NCBI RefSeq assembly: GCF_000021865.1
Contig: NC_014034.1
Coordinates: forward strand, 2,730,001-2,762,000
Length of the DNA: 32,000 bases
Direction: 5' to 3'
Origin: Rhodobacter capsulatus SB 1003
GTDB taxonomy: Bacteria > Pseudomonadota > Alphaproteobacteria > Rhodobacterales > Rhodobacteraceae
The position numbers were made by a program, and so were the translations under genes. The notes beneath the pieces were generated by a model, which was given only the letters and a program-made list of their open reading frames with translations, searched no databases and had not been told where the DNA came from. This document shows positions 24,199 to 32,000 of the stretch, one piece after another (the first letter of the stretch is position 1; every line of letters begins with the position of its first letter).

Positions 24199-24273
<75 letters not shown>

Positions 24274-24457
24274 TCCCTCCCAAAAAATCAATTGGTTAGG
24301 CGGAGATGGTGGCTGCTGCTATCTGTTACCCCGCGTTACCCCTGCCAGAATCACCCGCCCAAGCATCCACCAAACCTCGCTATTGCTTTCGCGCACGTCT
24401 GCCGCAGGGCCGAGGTGGCGGGCGTCGCTGCAGACGTTCCCGCGCGGCTCCTACCGA

Positions 24458-24571
24458 TCAGCCGATCAGACGGTTGAATATCGCCTGCAAGCGAGCGTCG
24501 ATGGCACCCCGTTGCCCTTCCGCGATCAGGTTCAGAAACTCGACCACCTGGGCATCCCCTAAAGCAATCAT
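24458..24571 (-). CDS. Candidate 37-aa ORF
   Basis: MIALGDAQVVEFLNLIAEGQRGAIDARLQAIFNRLIG. The ATG overlaps the stop of the upstream 50-aa ORF (ATGA at 24568-24571). There is no other support. Confidence 0.25.
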   Translation of the reverse strand: MIALGDAQVVEFLNLIAEGQRGAIDARLQAIFNRLIG

Positions 24572-24720
24572 GAAGCCTCGGCCATCTTGGGCTGTGTCCC
24601 GGCACCGCGCGCACAGAGGCAGATGGATCCAGCACCATCCTGATAGGCGATGTGGCGGCTCCCGCCCGGGCGGCGGTTGAAGACACGCGCCGTCGCGCGG
24701 TCAAAGCTGACAGCTTCCAT
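24568..24720 (-). CDS. Candidate 50-aa ORF
   Basis: MEAVSFDRATARVFNRRPGGSRHIAYQDGAGSICLCARGAGTQPKMAEAS, taken from the internal ATG of track ORF 24568..24762, with AAGGA-like SD 7 nt upstream. Confidence 0.35.
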   Translation of the reverse strand: MEAVSFDRATARVFNRRPGGSRHIAYQDGAGSICLCARGAGTQPKMAEAS

Positions 24721-24777
24721 TTCTGTATCCTTGATGATGGGGAAATCGCCGCCCGACCTCACGCCGGGCGGCGGGGG

Positions 24778-25056
24778 TCAGGCGGCGCGGATGGCGACCC
24801 ACCAGCCCTTGTGATCCACGACAAGGCGGAGGGCCGGGTCAGCCTTCATCGCGCCGTTCACCGTCATCATGGCGCGATAGACGACCGTGGTCGCGCCGTT
24901 GATTTCACGGGTTGCGTATCCACCACCCCAATCGACAGTGATCCCGCGTCCATCATCGTCACGGGTGATCTGGCAGAAGTCGGGCCGGAACGCCCGGTGC
25001 GCGCCATTTAGCACGGCAAGCGCGTCATCCAAGTTTTCAACATTCGTGTAGGCCAT
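24778..25056 (-). CDS. Hypothetical protein (92 aa)
   Basis: MAYTNVENLDDALAVLNGAHRAFRPDFCQITRDDDGRGITVDWGGGYATREINGATTVVYRAMMTVNGAMKADPALRLVVDHKGWWVAIRAA. Balanced composition (N, Y, W, K, D present), unlike the shadow ORFs. GAAAGGGG SD upstream. No family recognised. Confidence 0.55.
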   Translation of the reverse strand: MAYTNVENLDDALAVLNGAHRAFRPDFCQITRDDDGRGITVDWGGGYATREINGATTVVYRAMMTVNGAMKADPALRLVVDHKGWWVAIRAA

Positions 25057-25650
25057 TGAGCGCCCCTTTCAGGGATAGGGCACTGGCGCGTGGGGGGCTC
25101 CGCCCGACCAACAAACACCAGCACCGGGTTTCGGTGTTCATGGTGAATCTGGTTCGGGCCATCTGGCGTGCTGCTCTCGGCAGGCCGCTCAAGGTTTCCG
25201 GTCCTGCCCCCGGGCCGTGGCGTGGCCCGAGGTCGGGCGCTCCTATCACAGGACAGCCTCGATATTGGCACCACCCTGCCACTTGTCAACCGCAAGATGT
25301 GGCTTGGCGCTCGGGGCGACGCGGGAACACAAAAAGAACATCGCGGGTCTTGTGCTGAGGGCTTCACGGCCCCATATTGGTGGTATGGCTCCCAGAAGGG
25401 CGGGCGCCAGTTACGTGTTTAAACTGTCAAGGCCAGCTTCCGGGGCGGTGCAGATCGCGAGTTCCATAATTCGGGCTCCTTTCGCCAGCCACGCGGGCGG
25501 CGTTGCGGCAATCCGGCAATACCACATTGCCAGGTGCGTCACAGTGTATACGACCACGTCAAAGACGAACGCACACCGCAGAACGGCGGGGGCGGAGATG
25601 TTAAGGGTCAGTGCGTTGACCCAATGCTCCGTCCCCACTCGTGGAGGGCC

Positions 25651-27123
25651 ATGCAAGACGAGTTCGACTTCACCACCAAGGACCTGAAGCACTACCCCCA
25701 TTTTGACGCCCCCCTCTCGCTGAGGGAAATCCGCCGCCTTGTCACCTCGCCAGAGAGGGTTGCGGCCAATTCGTTCTACCCGTTCTTCCTCTATGAGGAG
25801 TCATGGCAGCCGTACCGCTCTGCGGACGCAGCGAAGCCTGACAAGAAGACGCGCCCGATCCGGTACGGCGCCCGGCGCGATGCGTACATCTTCGCATTCT
25901 ACCGGCGGAAGCTGTCGCGCCTCTATGAGGCGAGGCTTCGCACCTTGGGCATTGAGGACTGCCCCATTGCCTACCGCCAAGTTTCCAAGTCGGGACTGGG
26001 CGGCGGGAAGTGCAACATAGACTTCGCCAAGGATGCGTTTGACGAGATTGACCGGCTGGGCGACTGCGTTGCCGTCGCGCTCGACATCAAGGGTTACTTT
26101 GAGAACCTCGACCACCGGCGCATCAAGCAAATCTGGTGCGACCTGCTGGGCGTGGCTGAGCTTCCGCCCGACCACTATGCAGTCTTCAAGAATATCACCA
26201 AGTACCACTTCGTTGACCAGAGGACCACCTACAGGCGGCTGGGCTACTTCGGCCTGCGGGAGCGGAACGGGGAGATGATCGACGGCTTCCTGCGGCCCTA
26301 CCGCGACATGCCCAAGCAGCTCTGCTCCAATGCTGACTTCCGGGCGAAGATATGCGGCGGGGACCCTGCCTATCCGTCCATCATCAAGAAGAACGACAAG
26401 CCCCATGGTGTGCCTCAGGGGGCGCCGATTTCAGACCTCATCGCCAACTTCTACCTTTTGGAGTTCGACGTGGTCATGGCGGCCTATGCTCGCGCCCGGG
26501 GTGGGCGCTACATGCGCTACTCTGACGACATCCTCCTGATCCTGCCCGGGGGTGCCAGCGAGGCCAGCGCCGCCGTCGCCTTCGCCACGGCGGAGATGCT
26601 GAACCACGGCCCCGAGTTGCGGATCAAGGACAGCAAGACCTGCGTGGCACAGTTTGAGCGTGTTGCGGGGGCGCTGCGCTTCCAACACCTCGCGCAGCGC
26701 CCGGACGAACCCGCCAAGAATGGCTTTGAGTACCTTGGCTTCCGCTACGATGGGCGCTGCGTTTATGTGCGCGACAGCACCATTTCCCGCTTCTTCGGGA
26801 AGGTCGCCGGGGCGGCCAAACGGGACGGGCGGCGGCATGTGGAGGCAAACCCGGCGATGGATGCCGGGGACCTGATTCGTGCGTTCGACTTCTCTCTGTT
26901 CTCGCAGCGCTTCAGTCGCGTGAAGAAGGAGAAGCTGACAGACGACTACCGCAGTTGGACGTTCTACTCATACCTCAAGCGCTCGGCAGAGGCGTTCGGC
27001 CCGAAGGGCGACCGCATCTTGAAGCAGGCTCGGGGCTTTGATGACTTCATGAAGGCAAGGGTTTCCGGGGCCATCGTCACGGCGGCAGCCAAACGCAAAG
27101 CGCCCGCCAAAACCGCTGCTTGA
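25651..27123 (+). CDS. Stand-alone reverse transcriptase, Abi/UG (defence-associated RT)-like
   Basis: RT motifs in order: KTRPIRYGARRDAYIFAFY, VALDIKGYFENLDH (motif A Asp), GVPQGAPISDLIANFYLLEFD (motif B), MRYSDDILLILPG (YxDD), LRIKDSKT, FEYLGFRY. They are followed by a ~130-aa C-terminal extension that ends in a K/A-rich tail. The start is set at ATG 25651 (GGAGGG SD); the track GTG at 25534 and ATG at 25624 are alternatives. Confidence 0.9.
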   Translation: MQDEFDFTTKDLKHYPHFDAPLSLREIRRLVTSPERVAANSFYPFFLYEESWQPYRSADAAKPDKKTRPIRYGARRDAYIFAFYRRKLSRLYEARLRTLGIEDCPIAYRQVSKSGLGGGKCNIDFAKDAFDEIDRLGDCVAVALDIKGYFENLDHRRIKQIWCDLLGVAELPPDHYAVFKNITKYHFVDQRTTYRRLGYFGLRERNGEMIDGFLRPYRDMPKQLCSNADFRAKICGGDPAYPSIIKKNDKPHGVPQGAPISDLIANFYLLEFDVVMAAYARARGGRYMRYSDDILLILPGGASEASAAVAFATAEMLNHGPELRIKDSKTCVAQFERVAGALRFQHLAQRPDEPAKNGFEYLGFRYDGRCVYVRDSTISRFFGKVAGAAKRDGRRHVEANPAMDAGDLIRAFDFSLFSQRFSRVKKEKLTDDYRSWTFYSYLKRSAEAFGPKGDRILKQARGFDDFMKARVSGAIVTAAAKRKAPAKTAA

Positions 27124-27691
27124 GCGGCTCCCAGCAGGCGCCTTCCGTCCTAGCTTCCCGTCTTAGGAGCCTCGTGGGCTGCAAGTCTTTGATTTCTTGG
27201 CTCCGGCGGTAGGCGCGGAGGGATTAAACCCAACTCGGCAGAATTGCCGATTAGTCCTTTAATATCAGGGCTTAAGCTGACCGCCCGTCCAGCCCGGCCA
27301 TCATGCGTGTGTGCCTGACGTGCTTCGATTGTGTGCCTAGACTAGGCCGCCCGCACGGCAAGCGCCAGCCGCAAAAGCGATCAGGGCCGCATATTTTGGC
27401 GGAAAAATCCGAGCCACCACCTCGACCGAAGTGCAGCCGCGCAGCCCCCCCCCGGTGGCCGCCCGCCCTGGGCCCGTTCAGGTCGCCCAGCACGCTCCCG
27501 AGGCCGCCCCAGCGCCGCCCCTCCCGCCACCCCGGCACCTCTCCCGGTGCAGCCAAGGGCACCCAAATAGGCGTCCCTACTGCATGGGTGTCCGCCTCCC
27601 GGCTCAGTCAATTTACATTCACAACGTTCGTTGACATTTGATATTTGTTGCCCCACCTTGGTTCCGACAGATCAAACAGGGGGCCGCAGCC

Positions 27692-28357
27692 GTGCGCCAG
27701 TTCGTTATCTACCGCCGTGTCAGCACCGAAGAACAAGGCCGCTCCGGGCTAGGGCTTGAGGCCCAGAGCCGAGACGTTGACCTTTACCTTGCCAACTATG
27801 CCGAGACGCCCTTTGAGGTTCTGGGCGAGTTCCTTGACGTGACCTCGGGGCGGGACAACGACAGGCCAGAGTTGAACAAGGCGCTGGACCTGTGCCGCCG
27901 CACCGGGGCCGAATTGCTGGTCGCCAAGCTTGACCGCCTCTCCCGCCGCGTGTCCTTCATCGCCGCGCTTATGGATGATCCCAAGGTGAAGCTGCGGGTG
28001 GCCTCCATGCCGAACGCGGACAAGTTCCAGCTTCATATCTATGCCGCGCTGGCGGAACAGGAACGGGACTTCATCTCCCTGCGCACCAAGGCCGCGCTTG
28101 CCGAGGCGAAGGCCCGGGGTCAGAAGCTAGGAGGGCTGCGTGATGCCACCGGCAAGCGCAATGAGGCTATCCAGCGGGACGCCCGCAGCTTTGCCGAACG
28201 GGTGCGCCCGATAGTGCAGCCCATGCGCGCCTCCGGGGCCACCTTGGCGCAGATCGCAGAGGCCCTTGGCGGGGCTGGCATCGCGACACCGCGGGGCGGG
28301 GCGTGGACGGCAACGCAGGTCAAGCGGGTGCTGGACCGGCTGGATAGTGTTGCATAA
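27692..28357 (+). CDS. Small serine recombinase (resolvase/invertase family) with C-terminal HTH
   Basis: Start set at GTG 27692 (AGGGGG 8 nt upstream), giving VRQFVIYRRVSTEEQ with the nucleophile Ser context. Also LLVAKLDRLSRR and a C-terminal ATLAQIAEALGGAGIATPRGGAWTATQVKRVL HTH-like segment. Confidence 0.9.
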   Translation: MRQFVIYRRVSTEEQGRSGLGLEAQSRDVDLYLANYAETPFEVLGEFLDVTSGRDNDRPELNKALDLCRRTGAELLVAKLDRLSRRVSFIAALMDDPKVKLRVASMPNADKFQLHIYAALAEQERDFISLRTKAALAEAKARGQKLGGLRDATGKRNEAIQRDARSFAERVRPIVQPMRASGATLAQIAEALGGAGIATPRGGAWTATQVKRVLDRLDSVA

Positions 28358-28526
28358 ATGTCACTCACCGTCACCCTATCTGTGTGTTTTCTCCGATTGT
28401 TTCAGCGGCAGCTTTTGTGACCACGCGACAACCCCCTGAGGCAGCGTAAGAAGTCACAGAAAGCTGCGCCCATATGTGCCCATTGCGGGATTATAACGTG
28501 ATTTCCTTAGGTTGCACCGCGACGTT

Positions 28527-28826
28527 ATGAAAGGGACACGTCAACAAACCGCAAGGGACACCACCGTGACAGCCGCCATAACCCACGCCATGGGCCTGTT
28601 CGAACAAGCCAAGGACCACGGCGTAACCCCCTATGGATCACCTAGCGCACACCGCGCCTTGGCAGCGTGTATCCAATCCTCCGGCCACCTCCTGACCATT
28701 GCCGAGGAAGTCGCGGCGGGGCGGCTGGATGGAGACATTGCGCGTCAGTTTCTGCGCGCCGCCGCCGTCTCGTTGCCTAGGGCCATGAAGGCCGTCGAAA
28801 CCCTCCAGAACGCCGCCAAGCACTGA
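28527..28826 (+). CDS. Hypothetical protein (~99 aa; start uncertain)
   Basis: Track ORF 28512..28826. Helical, normal composition (GLFEQAKDHGVTPYGSPSAHRALAACIQSSGHLLTIAEEVAAGRLDGDIARQFL). Alternative GTG start at 28566 after AAGGGA. Confidence 0.5.
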   Translation: MKGTRQQTARDTTVTAAITHAMGLFEQAKDHGVTPYGSPSAHRALAACIQSSGHLLTIAEEVAAGRLDGDIARQFLRAAAVSLPRAMKAVETLQNAAKH

Positions 28827-28851
28827 CACAGCCAACCGATAGGAAACCGCC

Positions 28852-29199
28852 ATGACCACCACCACGACCCCTGAAGCCGCCACCCTGAACGCCCTTCTGG
28901 CCGCTGCCGGGGACCGCCTTGACCAGATCGCAGGGGAACACCGCCTGAGCCGCGAACAGATCGTCGCCATGAACACCGCCCGCCTTACCGCTGAGTTTCT
29001 CTATGACCTTGCCGAGGGGTTTGCGCGGGGTGAGGCGGCAGCACCTATGCCCCGCAGCCCAGCAATGCCGCTTTCCGCCCGCATGGTCATGGCGAAGCTT
29101 GCAGAGCTGCAATTCGGCTGCGGCGTCCAGATCGCCCCCGACGCGGCGCAATGGCAGGGCCGGGACCATGCCAAGGGGCCGTTTGACGAAGCGGCGTAA
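28852..29199 (+). CDS. Hypothetical protein (115 aa)
   Basis: AGGAAAC SD 6 nt upstream of the ATG, normal composition, followed by a strong terminator. Confidence 0.6.
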   Translation: MTTTTTPEAATLNALLAAAGDRLDQIAGEHRLSREQIVAMNTARLTAEFLYDLAEGFARGEAAAPMPRSPAMPLSARMVMAKLAELQFGCGVQIAPDAAQWQGRDHAKGPFDEAA

Positions 29200-29233
29200 G
29201 ATCGCCCCTCCGGCATCTATCAGAGCAACAAGA

Positions 29234-29262
29234 GGCCCTGCTTCGGCGGGGCCTTCTGCTTT
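29234..29262 (+). terminator. Rho-independent terminator with UUCG tetraloop
   Basis: GGCCCTGC-TTCG-GCGGGGCC (8-bp stem including one G-U pair) followed by TTCTGCTTT, 35 nt after the stop of the 115-aa ORF. Confidence 0.65.
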
Positions 29263-29286
29263 CCGCACGGGCCACGGCTAGCGTCT

Positions 29287-29441
29287 CCCATTCAAGTTGA
29301 AGGGGTGCCGAGGGGCATTTACCCCGCAAAGTTTGCGGGGTGAACACCCAACGAAATTCGTGGGGTGCGCATGTCCTCAACTTGAGGACTTACAGAAGCG
29401 CGAAATTCGCTCTTCCGTCTGCCCCCAGAAAGTTTCTGGGG
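29287..29441. repeat. Phased array of six different odd-length palindromes
   Basis: CCCATTCAA-G-TTGAAGGGG (29287-29305, 1 mismatch); CCCCGCAAA-G-TTTGCGGGG (29322-29340, perfect); CACCCAACGAA-A-TTCGTGGGGTG (29345-29367, 1 mismatch); GTCCTCAA-C-TTGAGGAC (29373-29389, perfect); GAAGCGCGAA-A-TTCGCTCTTC (29395-29415, 1 mismatch); CCCCAGAAA-G-TTTCTGGGG (29423-29441, perfect). Centres are at 29296, 29331, 29356, 29381, 29405 and 29432. Confidence 0.75.
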
Positions 29442-29581
29442 AGGGAAGGCGGGCGGGCGGCGATCAAGCGCAATGACGCTGCGTTTGGTCACATGTCCCC
29501 TACGGGGGCCGTCCCCCCGAGGACGTAACCTTTACTCCGATTAAAACTATCCGACGAGACGGCGCTTCCCCCAAAAGTATT

Positions 29582-29759
29582 GGTGGGAAATTCCCGCCGC
29601 TTCCTCAATGGCGACGAGGTGAGTGAGATTTCTCGCTCCGATCTTGGAACAGGGTCTCAAATTGAGATCATGTTCCCGGCCGGGTATCGACACAGCCTCC
29701 GGTCTAACGTCAAAACTTCTGACGTTAGCTTCCCGAACACCCTGAAAATTTTTCAGGGT
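29582..29759. repeat. Second cluster of palindromes / inverted repeats
   Basis: GGTGGGAA-A-TTCCCGCC (29582-29598, 1 mismatch); TCTCAA-A-TTGAGA (29655-29667); CCCGGCCGGG (29674-29683); CTAACGTCA-aaacttc-TGACGTTAG (29704-29728, perfect 9-bp arms); ACCCTGAAAA-T-TTTTCAGGGT (29739-29759, perfect 21-bp palindrome). Confidence 0.7.
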
Positions 29760-29771
29760 AAGTGCGTCCAC

Positions 29772-29852
29772 ACGGTCAACCTCGTCTCGGAAAGCGGCCT
29801 CTACAAGCTCATCCTCCGCGCCCAGAGGTCCGGCCCTGAACCCTCGGAGTTT
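29772..29852 (+). pseudogene. BRO-N / antirepressor-like domain remnant
   Basis: Frame of track ORF 29580..29975 reads TVNLVSESGLYKLILRAQRSGPEPSEF. This matches the conserved ...SESGLYxLILRSxKPEAxxF core of phage BRO-N domains. The expected downstream WV..EVLP.IRK segment is absent in all frames, and the upstream part is occupied by palindromes. Confidence 0.35.
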
Positions 29853-30000
29853 TCGAGGGTATCGTCGGGAGAAGGTGGCGACGGGCGCAAGCCCGCAGAT
29901 GCTTCAAATACGCCCGCACAGCGCCGTCCTCTCCCGCCCCATATCCCCCTAGGGGAAAACGGAAGGCGCGCCTAGGGGCAATCTTTGAGCCTCTCAGGGT

Positions 30001-30092
30001 CACCCATTTAGGACGCACTACAGGAACAGTCCACCCATTTAGGACGTACCACAGGAGCGGGCCAGTCCGTCCAATTTCCCCTTACTACAGGA
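30001..30092 (+). repeat. Tandem 25-bp direct repeats (two good copies plus one degenerate) upstream of the 307-aa ORF
   Basis: CACCCATTTAGGACGCACTACAGGA (30001-30025) and CACCCATTTAGGACGTACCACAGGA (30032-30056) are 23/25 identical with a 31-bp period. The degenerate third copy at 30068-30092 matches 16/25 and shares the terminal ACTACAGGA. AGTCCGTCC also occurs twice (30064-30072, 30100-30108). Confidence 0.7.
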
Positions 30093-30156
30093 CACCCCAA
30101 GTCCGTCCCCCTCATCCCGTCAAACAACATCAACAATCCCAAGAGGAAACGACACA

Positions 30157-31080
30157 ATGAGCCAGAACACCATCCACCTTACCGAGGCCGAGGCCGTCCG
30201 CATGGCCGATGAAGCCGCCGCCGCCCGCCGCAGCACACCTTACAACGGCTTCCAACCTGCCGCCATCACCTCCGACCGTCACGAAGTCATCATCCGGGGC
30301 GGTCAAGTTGCCGAGGTCAAGAGCGCCAGCAAGACGCTGGGCGTCCCGACCGGCTATGCCGAACATCACCGCCCCGGCTTCATCCGCATTCCCGGCGCCG
30401 GTGAGACGACGATTGCCGCCGCCAAAGCTGCCGGGTTCTTGCCGCATACCTGGCAGGAGGGCGATAAGCTCCCTTTTGACGACGCCCCCAAAGGTCCGCA
30501 ATCGGACCCCCAGCGGGGCAGCGACAAGGCCACTGAGGCGGCCGAAGACAAGCCGCAGGAACGCACCGTTGCAGAGCACCGGGCCAAGGTCGCCGGGGAC
30601 ATTCTGGACCGTGCCGACAAGGCGCTGGGCGCAGAGGTGACGGACAAATACCTGAGCGATGCAGTCGAGACGGGGGTTATCCCCGAGGAAGGACTTCCCG
30701 AAGGTTTCACGCCGGTCATGGTGAAACAGGTCTACCAAGGATACGTCGCCCAAGCTGACGCAGTGCTGGCCCCCGTGGGCGCCTCCGTGGCGTTGCTGCA
30801 GGACATGCTGACCGATGACGAGCTTCGCCAAGCGCGCCATCATACCTTGTCCAAGGACAGCGACAGCCTTGCGGACCTCGGACGGGCTGCGGTCAACCGC
30901 CTCGCCATGCTGCCCAAGACCGACCCCGAGGGCTTCATGCAGATGGTCGCGGACATGCCCGCCGCCGAGCGCAAGTGCATCGACTTCGACAAGAAGCGCG
31001 GGGAATGGCTGGTCAAGATCCCCGGCAAGCCGACCATGAGTTACGGCGCTGCGGTCCGCATGGCCCTTGTCCGCGTCTGA
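30157..31080 (+). CDS. Hypothetical protein (307 aa), phage/island-borne
   Basis: AGAGGAAAC SD 7 nt upstream of the ATG and balanced composition. The antisense ORF 30130..31119 is G/R/A-rich shadow. No family recognised. Confidence 0.7.
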   Translation: MSQNTIHLTEAEAVRMADEAAAARRSTPYNGFQPAAITSDRHEVIIRGGQVAEVKSASKTLGVPTGYAEHHRPGFIRIPGAGETTIAAAKAAGFLPHTWQEGDKLPFDDAPKGPQSDPQRGSDKATEAAEDKPQERTVAEHRAKVAGDILDRADKALGAEVTDKYLSDAVETGVIPEEGLPEGFTPVMVKQVYQGYVAQADAVLAPVGASVALLQDMLTDDELRQARHHTLSKDSDSLADLGRAAVNRLAMLPKTDPEGFMQMVADMPAAERKCIDFDKKRGEWLVKIPGKPTMSYGAAVRMALVRV

Positions 31081-31102
31081 CGCTCTCCCCGAACACTGAC
31101 TA

Positions 31103-31136
31103 GCGCCCCCGTTGACCACCGCGGGGGCGCCCTTTC
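31103..31136 (+). terminator. Hairpin with weak T-tract after the 307-aa ORF (terminator or attenuator)
   Basis: GCGCCCCCG-ttgaccaccg-CGGGGGCGC (9-bp stem) followed by CCTTTCGTC. Confidence 0.5.
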
Positions 31137-31171
31137 GTCATTCTCTACCGTCACCCAGAGGAAACCCGACA

Positions 31172-31381
31172 ATGACTGCTGAAATCTACACCATGCCGCC
31201 CCTGCCAACCGCGATCTGTCCCGGCTGCGGGGCCACCTTCACCCCGCCCGTGCTGCCCTCCCGCGCCCGAGGCAATGACACCACCTGCCGCGCCTGTGCC
31301 GCCGCCGCCATCGAAGCAGAGCGCGCAGCCGAACGCGCAGCTTACACCGACATGTGCACCACGGGGACCATCCTGAAATGA
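31172..31381 (+). CDS. Small zinc-ribbon-like protein (69 aa)
   Basis: MTAEIYTMPPLPTAICPGCGATFTPPVLPSRARGNDTTCRACAAAAIEAERAAERAAY..., with CPGC...CRAC cysteine pairs. AGAGGAAAC SD context nearly identical to that of the 307-aa ORF. The start is trimmed from the track TTG at 31112, which lies inside the hairpin. Confidence 0.6.
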   Translation: MTAEIYTMPPLPTAICPGCGATFTPPVLPSRARGNDTTCRACAAAAIEAERAAERAAYTDMCTTGTILK

Positions 31382-31833
31382 ACGCAGAACACCCCATCGC
31401 CCGCCTTCTGAACCTCACCGCCGCCTTCGGCATCGACCCGGCCAAGCTGACAGCGCAATTCGACACGCTCCGGGGGGACCCGGACGCGGACGCCATGTCC
31501 GACAGCGAAGGCGCGGTTGTCGCCCGTGCCGTGCATGACCTCATTGAAGCCTGTGCCAGCGCGGATCGGATCATCAAAGCGGCGGTCATCGCCAAGGCCA
31601 TCGGGGACTATCTGGCCGAGGCCCAGCGCCAAGCGCAAGAGCCGCCCCGACACCCCATGCAGCGCGCAAGGGACGCCATCGCAGCCCACGAACGGGACAC
31701 CGGAACGCGCCCCTCTTGGGCCGACCGGAAGGCCGTTGCGGCCATCGCCAGAGCCGCCAGCGCGCCCCGTGACGTGGTGCGCTTCCTCTTGCGGTACCCC
31801 ACCTGCACCCTCGGCATGGGGGCCTCTCAGTGA
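31378..31833 (+). CDS. Hypothetical protein (151 aa)
   Basis: ATG at 31378 overlaps the previous stop (ATGA). Sequence begins MNAEHPIARLLNLTAAFGIDPAKL..., with normal composition. Confidence 0.6.
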   Translation: MNAEHPIARLLNLTAAFGIDPAKLTAQFDTLRGDPDADAMSDSEGAVVARAVHDLIEACASADRIIKAAVIAKAIGDYLAEAQRQAQEPPRHPMQRARDAIAAHERDTGTRPSWADRKAVAAIARAASAPRDVVRFLLRYPTCTLGMGASQ

Positions 31834-32000
31834 GCCGCAGCGTTGATTTGACGCCGGTCCCCGTATGGGTCGCCGGTAAGGGCTTGGTCAGTCCCCCCGG
31901 CTGGATCAGCCCGGAGACGCGGGCACTCATGGACAAGGCGCAGCGCGAATGCGCAGAGGCGGCAGAAGTCATCGCCGCGCGCAAGGCCAGTCCCCAGGGC
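31830..32000 (+). CDS. Hypothetical protein, N-terminal fragment (runs off the right edge)
   Basis: GTG at 31830 overlaps the previous stop (GTGA). The frame stays open to the window end: VSRSVDLTPVPVWVAGKGLVSPPGWISPETRALMDKAQRECAEAAEVIAARKASPQG. Confidence 0.4.
   Translation, partial: MSRSVDLTPVPVWVAGKGLVSPPGWISPETRALMDKAQRECAEAAEVIAARKASPQG

What the first reader, a model, noticed from the sequence alone, without database searches (positions are those of the whole stretch)
25651..27123. Orphan Abi/UG-type reverse transcriptase on a tRNA-Thr island: candidate defence-associated RT system
The ORF has a complete RT palm/fingers motif set, including a YSDD catalytic box and a PQG motif B. It lacks the features of the domesticated classes I can recognise:
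- No group II intron maturase or endonuclease tail, and no intron-like RNA context.
- No retron-type VTG after motif 7.
- No nearby template/variable repeat pair as in diversity-generating retroelements.

Instead it has the N-terminal SFYPF...KxRxIxYxxxxDxxIxxxY layout and a ~130-aa non-RT C-terminal extension, as seen in abortive-infection / unknown-group (DRT-type) RTs. No recognisable effector gene is adjacent. About 0.6 kb of DNA without convincing ORFs lies on each side, which is unusual for this compact genome. In known DRT systems, such as DRT2 and DRT9, the partner is a structured ncRNA template rather than a protein. I cannot assign the clade by eye, so this may be a known DRT class or a new one.
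Basis: partly seen in the sequence, partly recalled or inferred. Interest (0 to 1): 0.85.

Follow-up and report, generated by a model that had tools for sequence, protein, structure and literature searches.

The report
Known DRT2 reverse-transcriptase phage defence locus
The ORF is a type 2 defence-associated reverse transcriptase (DRT2) with its upstream non-coding RNA, which in studied relatives is copied into a tandem-repeat DNA encoding a toxic "never-ending" protein; this exact locus is already in the published DRT2 catalogue, so it is a correct call but not a new system.

Summary
The ORF at 25651-27123 is real and carries the RT motifs described. It is a DRT2 (UG2) enzyme, not an unclassifiable RT:
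- PADLOC Drt2 E=6e-129.
- Best PDB match by sequence and by fold is the Klebsiella DRT2 RT-ncRNA complex 9c0i.

Its partner is about 265 nt of conserved, structured non-coding DNA directly upstream (about 25385-25640, same strand). The downstream flank is not conserved. From 27214 onward it belongs to a separate inserted element with a serine recombinase.

The DRT2 "neo" architecture, read on the antisense strand, is present and holds in 64 of the 65 related loci whose junction I could place:
- A template of 141 nt (47 codons), 25417-25557, bounded by a repeated GT.
- One stop-free frame.
- A split TTGACA / TACACT promoter that becomes 17-bp-spaced only across the repeat junction.
- A conserved AAGGAG + ATG start.

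Tang et al. 2024 (Table S1) already list this exact protein (WP_023925646.1, Rhodobacter capsulatus B10) with a predicted ncRNA, cDNA and Neo.

Two points are new here:
- The repeat junction is more likely 141 nt than the published heuristic 144 nt.
- A LexA-box-like GAAC-N7-GAAC sits upstream of the ncRNA promoter.

Verdict: already known, low interest.

The parts
25325..25339 (+). GAACACAAAAAGAAC. It is an exact match to the alpha-proteobacterial LexA-box consensus GAAC-N7-GAAC and lies 10 nt upstream of the -35. It may be a LexA operator or an A-tract UP element. Whether it belongs to the system is uncertain.
   Evidence: -: the motif is kept at the same position in 10 close loci while the flanking sequence diverges.
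- Background density is 0.056 per kb.
- The consensus is taken from PMC3091678.
25350..25378 (+). Sense-strand sigma-70-like promoter for the ncRNA-RT transcript: TTGTGC (25350-25355), a 17-nt spacer, then CATATT (25373-25378).
   Evidence: both hexamers are conserved while the spacer varies across 22 loci. Promoter function is inferred.
25385..25640 (+). DRT2 non-coding RNA: 5' handle, template and 3' scaffold. Both ends are approximate. The 5' end is inferred from the promoter; Tang et al. list 25390 to about 25625.
   Evidence: -: nucleotide conservation in about 35 loci.
- covariation.
- published ncRNA prediction for this locus.
25387..25408 (+). 5' handle hairpin.
   Evidence: helix 1 has 7 pairs, 6 of them with compensatory changes. 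One search gives the fold of the window sequence.
25417..25557 (+). Template region, 141 nt. Its reverse complement is one neo repeat of 47 codons: VVVYTVTHLAMWYCRIAATPPAWLAKGARIMELAICTAPEAGLDSLN.
   Evidence: In 64 of 65 resolved loci the length is a multiple of 3 and the same antisense frame is stop-free.
25417..25418 (+). [quoted passage not shown] It would template the 3'-terminal AC of each cDNA repeat.
   Evidence: GT is conserved at this position. Its role in the template jump is inferred by analogy with ACA-1.
25558..25559 (+). GT-2, in the conserved CGTCGAA motif (CGTCAAA in the window) directly 3' of the template. It is the proposed landing site for the template jump.
   Evidence: The role is inferred by analogy with ACA-2.
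25425..25430 (-). [quoted passage not shown]
   Evidence: the hexamer is TTGACA in most loci, with single-base variants (TTTACA, TTGACG, GTGACA) in some, down to about 44% RT identity.
25543..25548 (-). [quoted passage not shown] It is 17 bp from the -35 only across a repeat junction.
   Evidence: the spacer is 17 in 58 of 58 loci.
25465..25481 (-). Antisense ribosome-binding site AAGGAG (25476-25481) and start codon ATG (25465-25467), in the stop-free frame.
   Evidence: an RBS plus ATG/GTG (or, in one case, TTG) is found at the equivalent place in nearly all loci.
25588..25636 (+). 3' scaffold 'tower'-like hairpin: GGGGGCGGAG...CTCCGTCCCC, with an inner hairpin.
   Evidence: helices 2 and 3 have 16 pairs, 7 with compensatory changes, and about 98% of cells are paired.
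25651..27123 (+). DRT2 reverse transcriptase, 490 aa, with its RBS GGAGG at 25643-25647. YSDD catalytic box at 26518-26529.
27213..27214 (.). Right-hand end of the shared DRT2 locus. Beyond this point lies a separate inserted element (serine recombinase at 27638-28357, phage-like genes).
   Evidence: in the strain with record CP198940.1 identity runs to 27213 and then continues into ABC-transporter genes.

Best explanation
This is a two-part DRT2 (UG2) anti-phage system: an RT gene (25651-27123) and, just upstream on the same strand, a roughly 265-nt structured ncRNA made from its own promoter.

The proposed mechanism follows the Klebsiella system.
1. The RT binds the 5' handle and the 3' scaffold of the ncRNA.
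2. It reverse-transcribes the 141-nt template (25557 back to 25417).
3. At the template's 5' end it jumps back to the 3' end. Here the jump would use a GU microhomology (GT-1/GT-2), where Klebsiella uses ACA.
4. Repeated rounds give a concatemeric cDNA.
5. After phage-triggered second-strand synthesis, each repeat junction brings TTGACA and TACACT together at 17 bp and so creates a promoter.
6. The antisense transcript carries AAGGAG-ATG and a frame without stop codons (47 codons per repeat, hydrophobic). Its 'Neo' product arrests the infected cell.

Shown here: the family assignment, the conserved structured RNA, the repeat length, the open frame, and the promoter and RBS geometry.

Inferred from the literature and not tested here: cDNA synthesis, the phage trigger and toxicity.
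For: **RT identity**
- PADLOC Drt2: 429 bits, E=6e-129, against 65 bits for the next family.
- PDB by sequence: 9c0i/9lje DRT2, E=2e-62 over aa 13-435.
- AlphaFold model (pLDDT 81) with Foldseek: top hit 9c0i_A, E=7e-30, TM 0.75; the next hit is 1e-12.

**ncRNA**
- Only the upstream flank is conserved across about 35 loci.
- For the 5' hairpin and 3' tower, 94% of cells are paired against 45-60% in slid controls. There are 13 compensatory pairs, and 0 of 500 shuffles reach the observed values.

**Neo**
- With junctions anchored on conserved motifs, the repeat lengths are 111, 117, 120, 123, 126, 129, 132, 135, 138, 141, 147, 150 and 162 nt. All are multiples of 3.
- Antisense frame 0 is stop-free in 58 of 58 loci. 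The other antisense frames are open in 2 of 58 and 0 of 58, the sense frames in 11-16 of 58, and shuffled units in 13.6%. Six more loci fit with a looser search.
- The spacer across the junction is exactly 17 in all of them.
- The RBS and start codon are conserved.

**Prior listing and mechanism**
- Tang et al. 2024 Table S1 lists this exact protein and ncRNA with 'Neo identified TRUE'.
- The mechanism comes from PMC11100668 and PMC12039810.
Against: - The NCBIfam Drt2 equivalog score is 342.6, below the curated cut-off of 390, so this is a divergent clade.
- No ACA-1/ACA-2 pair is present. The microhomology is only 2 nt.
- The start codon lies about 78 nt after the -10, not 13-15 nt as in Klebsiella.
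- There is no codon-position signature of protein-level selection.
- The basal SL2-like stem could not be demonstrated by covariation.
- Nothing about activity, trigger or toxicity has been tested in this organism or clade.
- One locus, L041 (a MAG), breaks the multiple-of-3 rule.
Confidence: 0.85

Rival explanations
1. The system is the same, but the repeat is the published 144-nt / 48-codon unit (reverse complement of 25419-25562, junction ...DSL-I-DVVV...) with translation starting at ATGTGG. This is the entry in Tang et al. Table S1.
For: -: the published prediction.
- 144 is also a multiple of 3, and the same frame stays open.
- The ATGTGG start lies 15 nt after the -10, as in Klebsiella-like systems.
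Against: - That junction gives a 20-nt (TACACT) or 18-nt (TATACA) spacer between -35 and -10, instead of 17. It gives 20 nt in most relatives.
- There is no microhomology at its ends.
- The published boundaries come from alignment to the Klebsiella reference plus a 'start after 10 residues' rule.
- The ATGTGG codon is not conserved: the position is M, A, V or I in close relatives, and it has no RBS.
Confidence: 0.2
2. The RT and ncRNA make a cDNA that acts without being translated (for example as a decoy or sensor). On this view the antisense open frame and the promoter-like hexamers are by-products of constraints on RNA sequence and structure.
For: -: no excess of synonymous change in the neo frame.
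- The most conserved Neo residues coincide with the -10 and -35 DNA motifs.
- Tang et al. note that alternative mechanisms are possible in divergent clades.
Against: - Repeat lengths vary from 111 to 162 nt yet are always multiples of 3.
- Exactly one frame is open in 58 of 58 loci, against 13.6% expected.
- An RBS and start codon are conserved in that frame.
- These features have no RNA-level explanation.
Confidence: 0.05
3. It is a different UG/Abi class (protein-primed or untemplated synthesis, as in AbiK, DRT9 or DRT3), or a group II intron, retron or DGR RT.
For: Weak partial hits to many RT models over the palm region only.
Against: - The Drt2 model outscores every other by more than 360 bits.
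- Group II intron, retron and DRT9 structures are far weaker fold matches.
- There is no intron RNA, msr/msd or TR/VR pair, and Rfam finds nothing.
Confidence: 0.01

Closest known systems
Klebsiella pneumoniae DRT2 (KpnDRT2; UG2 / class 2 UG RT). Tang et al. 2024 and Wilkinson et al. 2024; PDB 9c0i.
   Same: - A single RT gene with an upstream same-strand ncRNA of about 270-280 nt and no protein effector.
- A 5' handle hairpin, a central template and a 3' scaffold hairpin.
- An antisense repeat whose length is a multiple of 3, with one stop-free frame.
- A -35 near the cDNA 3' end and a -10 near its 5' end, 17 bp apart across the junction.
- A hydrophobic Neo repeat with LD..L and .YTV motifs flanking the junction.
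- The same RT fold, with a long helical thumb.
   Different: - About 28% structure-based identity.
- The RT is 490 aa against 425 aa, with insertions around aa 200-225 and 345-357 and a tail about 30 aa longer.
- The repeat is 141 nt against 120 nt.
- The jump motif is (C)GT rather than ACA.
- The junction lies 8 and 9 nt from the promoter hexamers rather than about 6 and 11 nt.
- The conserved RBS and ATG are about 78 nt downstream of the -10, not 13-15 nt.
- It scores below the NCBIfam equivalog cut-off.
- This clade has not been tested experimentally.
The entry for this same locus in Tang et al. 2024 Table S1 (WP_023925646.1, Rhodobacter capsulatus B10, NZ_JAOTPJ010000061.1:109316-110788).
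   Same: - The protein sequence is identical over the part shown (about the first 400 residues; the table text is truncated).
- The ncRNA string is identical to the window sequence from 25390 onward.
- The same antisense frame was called Neo.
   Different: The published cDNA boundaries (144 nt) and start codon (ATGTGG) come from an automated heuristic. The comparative analysis here favours 141 nt and the AAGGAG-ATG start at 25467.
DRT9 and DRT10 (other class 2 UG RTs with ncRNA templates).
   Same: An RT plus a structured ncRNA, with repetitive DNA synthesis used for defence.
   Different: DRT9 makes poly-dA and DRT10 makes short telomere-like repeats with a SLATT effector. Their models and structures match this protein only weakly.

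Membership tests
DRT2 (UG2) | The RT belongs to the UG2/Drt2 sequence family. | tested here: met
   - PADLOC Drt2: 429 bits, E=6e-129; next family 65 bits.
- PDB DRT2 chains: E=2e-62.
- Caveat: the NCBIfam equivalog score is 342.6, below the cut-off of 390.
DRT2 (UG2) | DRT2 RT fold with an elongated helical thumb. | tested here: met
   - AlphaFold model: pLDDT 81, helices from 375 to 480.
- Foldseek top hit 9c0i_A: E=7e-30, TM 0.75.
DRT2 (UG2) | No accessory effector protein. A conserved structured ncRNA lies directly upstream on the same strand. | tested here: met
   - Upstream 25322-25650 is conserved and the downstream flank is not.
- Covariation in the 5' hairpin and 3' tower.
- The neighbouring 92-aa ORF is not found in the flanks held for the other DRT2 loci.
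DRT2 (UG2) | The template repeat length is a multiple of 3, and the reverse-complement concatemer has a stop-free frame (neo). | tested here: met
   - Window: 141 nt.
- 64 of 65 resolved loci fit.
- Only one frame is open in 56 of 58 loci, and frame 0 is open in all 58.
DRT2 (UG2) | A sigma-70 promoter is reconstituted only across the repeat junction (-35 and -10 at 17 bp). | tested here: met
   TTGACA-GTTTAAAC|GTGGTCGTA-TACACT. The spacer is 17 in 58 of 58 loci. This is geometry only; promoter activity was not tested.
DRT2 (UG2) | RBS and start codon in the open frame. | tested here: met
   AAGGAG, 8 nt, then ATG at 25467, conserved across clades. The position within the repeat differs from Klebsiella.
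DRT2 (UG2) | Conserved ACA-1/ACA-2 trinucleotides flanking the template, with an SL2 basal stem. | tested here: not met
   - No ACA pair is present. A conserved GT (often CGT) occupies the two equivalent positions.
- The basal stem is inconclusive. The CUGU/ACAG pairing is predicted but invariant, so there is no covariation to test.
- I read this as a clade variant of the jump motif, not as grounds for exclusion.
DRT2 (UG2) | Concatemeric cDNA, phage-triggered second-strand synthesis, and Neo toxicity or defence. | not testable with these tools
   Known only for Klebsiella DRT2 and five homologues from the Klebsiella-like clade.
Group II intron / retron / DGR RTs | Maturase/En domains with intron RNA; msr-msd with VTG; TR/VR repeats. 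| tested here: not met
   - NCBIfam group II 57.7 bits against a cut-off of 300, and retron models 40 bits or less.
- Rfam finds nothing in the flanks.
- The repeat search from 24100 onward, which includes both flanks, shows no TR/VR-like pair.

The most novel reading that the evidence does not exclude
In this Rhodobacterales clade the DRT2 operon may be wired to the SOS response. An exact alpha-proteobacterial LexA box (GAAC-N7-GAAC, 25325-25339) abuts the ncRNA promoter. GTTC-N7-GTTC boxes lie inside the promoter in two other clades. On this reading, DNA damage or phage infection would raise RT and ncRNA levels.

In addition, the clade would use a 2-nt GU jump and a 141-nt repeat, not the catalogued 144-nt repeat.
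Probability: 0.3. Interest if true: 0.4.

Novelty: already known. Interest (0 to 1): 0.2.

Why it matters
For annotation, RefSeq calls this protein only 'reverse transcriptase domain-containing protein', because it falls under the Drt2 equivalog cut-off. The locus should be labelled DRT2 with its ncRNA and neo template.

For the field, the added value is modest.
- The alpha-proteobacterial clade keeps every architectural rule of neo synthesis while replacing the ACA jump motif.
- The 17-bp rule gives a simple way to correct automated junction calls.
- A possible LexA box hints at a regulatory input that has not been described for DRT2.

R. capsulatus is genetically tractable and could serve as a native host for testing DRT2.

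Tried and rejected
- **Rfam scan of the flanks.** Only the tRNA was found. No DRT2 ncRNA family matched.
- **Single-sequence folding of the upstream region.** The z-scores were not significant at this GC content, so I relied on comparative data.
- **ACGT/ACGT (25413 and 25556) as the jump repeat.** I considered this first. The period is 143 nt, not a multiple of 3, and it runs into a stop codon, so I rejected it in favour of GT-1/GT-2.
- **Downstream flank as an ncRNA partner.** It has no conservation in any of 80 loci, and from 27214 it belongs to a separate inserted element.
- **The 92-aa ORF (24778-25056) as an accessory gene.** It has no Pfam hit and no homologue in the flanks held for the other DRT2 loci.
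- **Codon-position and synonymous/non-synonymous test of Neo.** Uninformative.
- **Column-by-column search for a basal stem between the template flanks.** Invariant positions dominate, so the result is inconclusive.
- **att-like direct repeats of the tRNA end within the window.** None found.
- **Literature search for later work on this clade.** Nothing specific found.

Full report
**Observation.** The ORF is real. It runs from 25651 to 27123 (+) and encodes 490 aa. The ATG at 25651 is the start shared by homologues, unlike the longer GTG start at 25534. tRNA-Thr(GGT) lies at 24199-24273, and GC drops from about 0.69 to about 0.62 from there on. The neighbours are a 92-aa ORF with no family hit and a resolvase. 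No effector-like gene is adjacent.

**Family assignment.**
- Pfam sees only a weak RVT_1 match.
- PADLOC's Drt2 model scores 429 bits (E=6e-129). The next non-Drt2 RT model scores 65 bits.
- NCBIfam's Drt2 equivalog scores 342.6, below its cut-off of 390. This explains why public annotation says only 'reverse transcriptase domain-containing protein'.
- Against the PDB, the only strong sequence matches are Klebsiella DRT2 chains (9c0i, 9lje, 9lv7), at E about 2e-62 over residues 13-435.
- An AlphaFold model (pLDDT 81) has 9c0i_A, the DRT2 RT-ncRNA complex, as its top Foldseek hit (E=7e-30, TM 0.75). The next hit is 17 orders of magnitude weaker.
Wilkinson et al. describe that thumb as the binding surface for the ncRNA scaffold.

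**Which flank matters.** I collected more than 900 homologues, mostly alpha-proteobacterial and about 490 aa long, and 80 genomic loci.
- The upstream stretch 25322-25650 is conserved at the DNA level in about 35 loci. The core is 25408-25650.
- The downstream flank matches nothing.
- An identical RT in another strain (CP198940.1) shares sequence only up to window 27213 and then runs into ABC-transporter genes. In the window a serine-recombinase, phage-like element follows instead. The downstream ORF-poor stretch is therefore 90 nt of RT 3' flank plus the left end of an unrelated insertion.

**The ncRNA.** The alignment shows a sense-strand promoter: TTGTGC at 25350-25355, a variable 17-nt spacer, then CATATT at 25373-25378. 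About 265 nt of conserved non-coding sequence follow, up to the RT's ribosome-binding site. RNAalifold and pair counting support a 5' hairpin and a 3' 'tower' hairpin:
- 94% of cells are paired, against 45-60% when the partners are slid.
- 13 pairs carry compensatory changes, against 3-5 in the slid controls.
- None of 500 shuffles reaches the observed values.

**The neo architecture.** The two 2024 papers define DRT2 by the following features:
- a template flanked by a repeated trinucleotide;
- a repeat length divisible by 3;
- a stop-free frame antisense to the ncRNA;
- a -35 and a -10 that come into register only across the repeat junction;
- an RBS and start codon.

In the window the antisense strand carries TTGACA (25430-25425), a hexamer found unchanged or with a single substitution across the family, and TACACT (25548-25543; TATACT in most relatives). 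I anchored the junction on two conserved motifs: the GT that lies 7 nt 5' of CTGTCAA (25417-25418), and the GT of CGTCGAA (25558-25559).
- The template is then 25417-25557, 141 nt or 47 codons.
- Across the family the same anchors give repeats of 111 to 162 nt. Every one is a multiple of 3, in 58 of 59 loci with the first search and in 6 more with a looser one. The single exception is a MAG.
- The frame that starts at the first cDNA base is stop-free in 58 of 58 loci. The other antisense frames are open in 2 and 0 loci, the sense frames in 11-16, and shuffled units in 13.6%.
- The spacer across the junction is exactly 17 bp in all 58 (TTGACA-GTTTAAAC|GTGGTCGTA-TACACT in the window).
- AAGGAG, 8 nt, then ATG (A at 25467) sits in the open frame and is conserved across clades.
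- The Neo repeat VVVYTVTHLAMWYCRIAATPPAWLAKGARIMELAICTAPEAGLDSLN is hydrophobic (GRAVY 0.65). As reported for Klebsiella, it is conserved mainly where the promoter motifs lie.

**Prior knowledge.** Table S1 of Tang et al. 2024 lists exactly this protein: WP_023925646.1, Rhodobacter capsulatus B10, a 1,473-nt gene. It records a putative ncRNA identical to the window sequence from 25390, a putative cDNA and 'Neo identified TRUE'. The system and this locus are therefore already catalogued, although the Rhodobacter locus is not reported as experimentally tested and the homologues that were tested came from the Klebsiella-like clade.

**Differences from the catalogue entry and from Klebsiella.**
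- The published cDNA for this locus is 144 nt (reverse complement of 25419-25562) and starts at ATGTGG. Those boundaries came from alignment to the Klebsiella reference and a 'start after ten residues' rule.
- That junction would space the promoter hexamers by 18-20 bp and has no terminal microhomology. The ATGTGG codon is not conserved and has no RBS.
- I therefore favour the 141-nt unit and the AAGGAG-ATG start, but only junction reads can decide.
- Compared with Klebsiella, the jump motif is (C)GT rather than ACA. The junction sits 8 and 9 nt from the hexamers rather than about 6 and 11 nt. The start codon lies deep in the repeat.
- The ACA criterion is thus formally not met. I treat this as a clade variant, because every other defining feature is met.

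**Mechanism and confidence.** The most likely function is rolling-circle reverse transcription of the template, junction-dependent transcription, and translation of a never-ending toxic ORF that gives abortive infection or dormancy. The anatomy is shown here. The activity is inferred from the Klebsiella-clade experiments. I put confidence at about 0.85.

**Other observations.**
- A GAAC-N7-GAAC motif at 25325-25339 matches the alpha-proteobacterial LexA operator consensus. It is kept in ten close loci, and GTTC-N7-GTTC occurs within the promoters of two other clades. Its A-rich centre could equally be an UP element.
- Many homologous loci sit beside tRNA genes.

**Verdict.** Interest is low, at 0.2.

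Noticed in passing
window 25325-25339 (also L001, L002, L004, L005, L006, L009, L010, L029, L080; L021, L022, L025; L037): There is an exact GAAC-N7-GAAC, the alpha-proteobacterial LexA-box consensus, 10 nt upstream of the ncRNA promoter's -35. It is conserved in close relatives while the flanks diverge. GTTC-N7-GTTC lies inside the promoter spacer or over the -10 in two other clades. Background density is 0.056 per kb. The A-rich centre could instead be an UP element.
   Followed up: partly
window 27214-32000: This is a separate inserted element, absent from strain CP198940.1. It has a serine recombinase (27638-28357, Resolvase plus Recombinase domains), then small ORFs of unknown function. 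Just beyond the window, in L081, there is a Bro-N/ANT phage-type gene. It is probably a prophage or integrative element that landed 90 nt after the RT stop.
   Followed up: partly
L003, L004, L029 (tRNA-Asn); L012 and L007 (tRNA-Phe); L018 and L037 (tRNA-Gly); L040 (tRNA-Gln); window 24199-24273 (tRNA-Thr): In roughly 8 of 40 homologous loci a tRNA gene, of varying identity, lies within about 60-350 nt of the RT stop or the ncRNA promoter. This suggests that these minimal DRT2 modules sit at tRNA-linked integration hot spots.
   Followed up: no
window 24274-25320: About 1 kb lies between the tRNA-Thr and the DRT2 promoter. It holds only a 92-aa ORF (24778-25056, -) with no family hit and no homologue near other DRT2 loci. 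Short patches (24599-24721, 25048-25137, 25198-25255) are 73-82% identical to the Pseudooceanicola locus L003, possibly remnants of a shared mobile context.
   Followed up: partly
window 30001-30062: Two tandem 31-nt direct repeats (84% identical) lie in the intergenic region of the inserted element, just upstream of the 307-aa ORF at 30157-31080. They may be an operator or iteron-like site.
   Followed up: no
window 25411-25701 (-): the ORF listing reports a 96-aa antisense ORF that spans the ncRNA and the RT start. It is the linear genomic image of the neo frame, which closes at TAA 25413-25411 just past the template's 5' end. It should not be annotated as a gene.
   Followed up: yes
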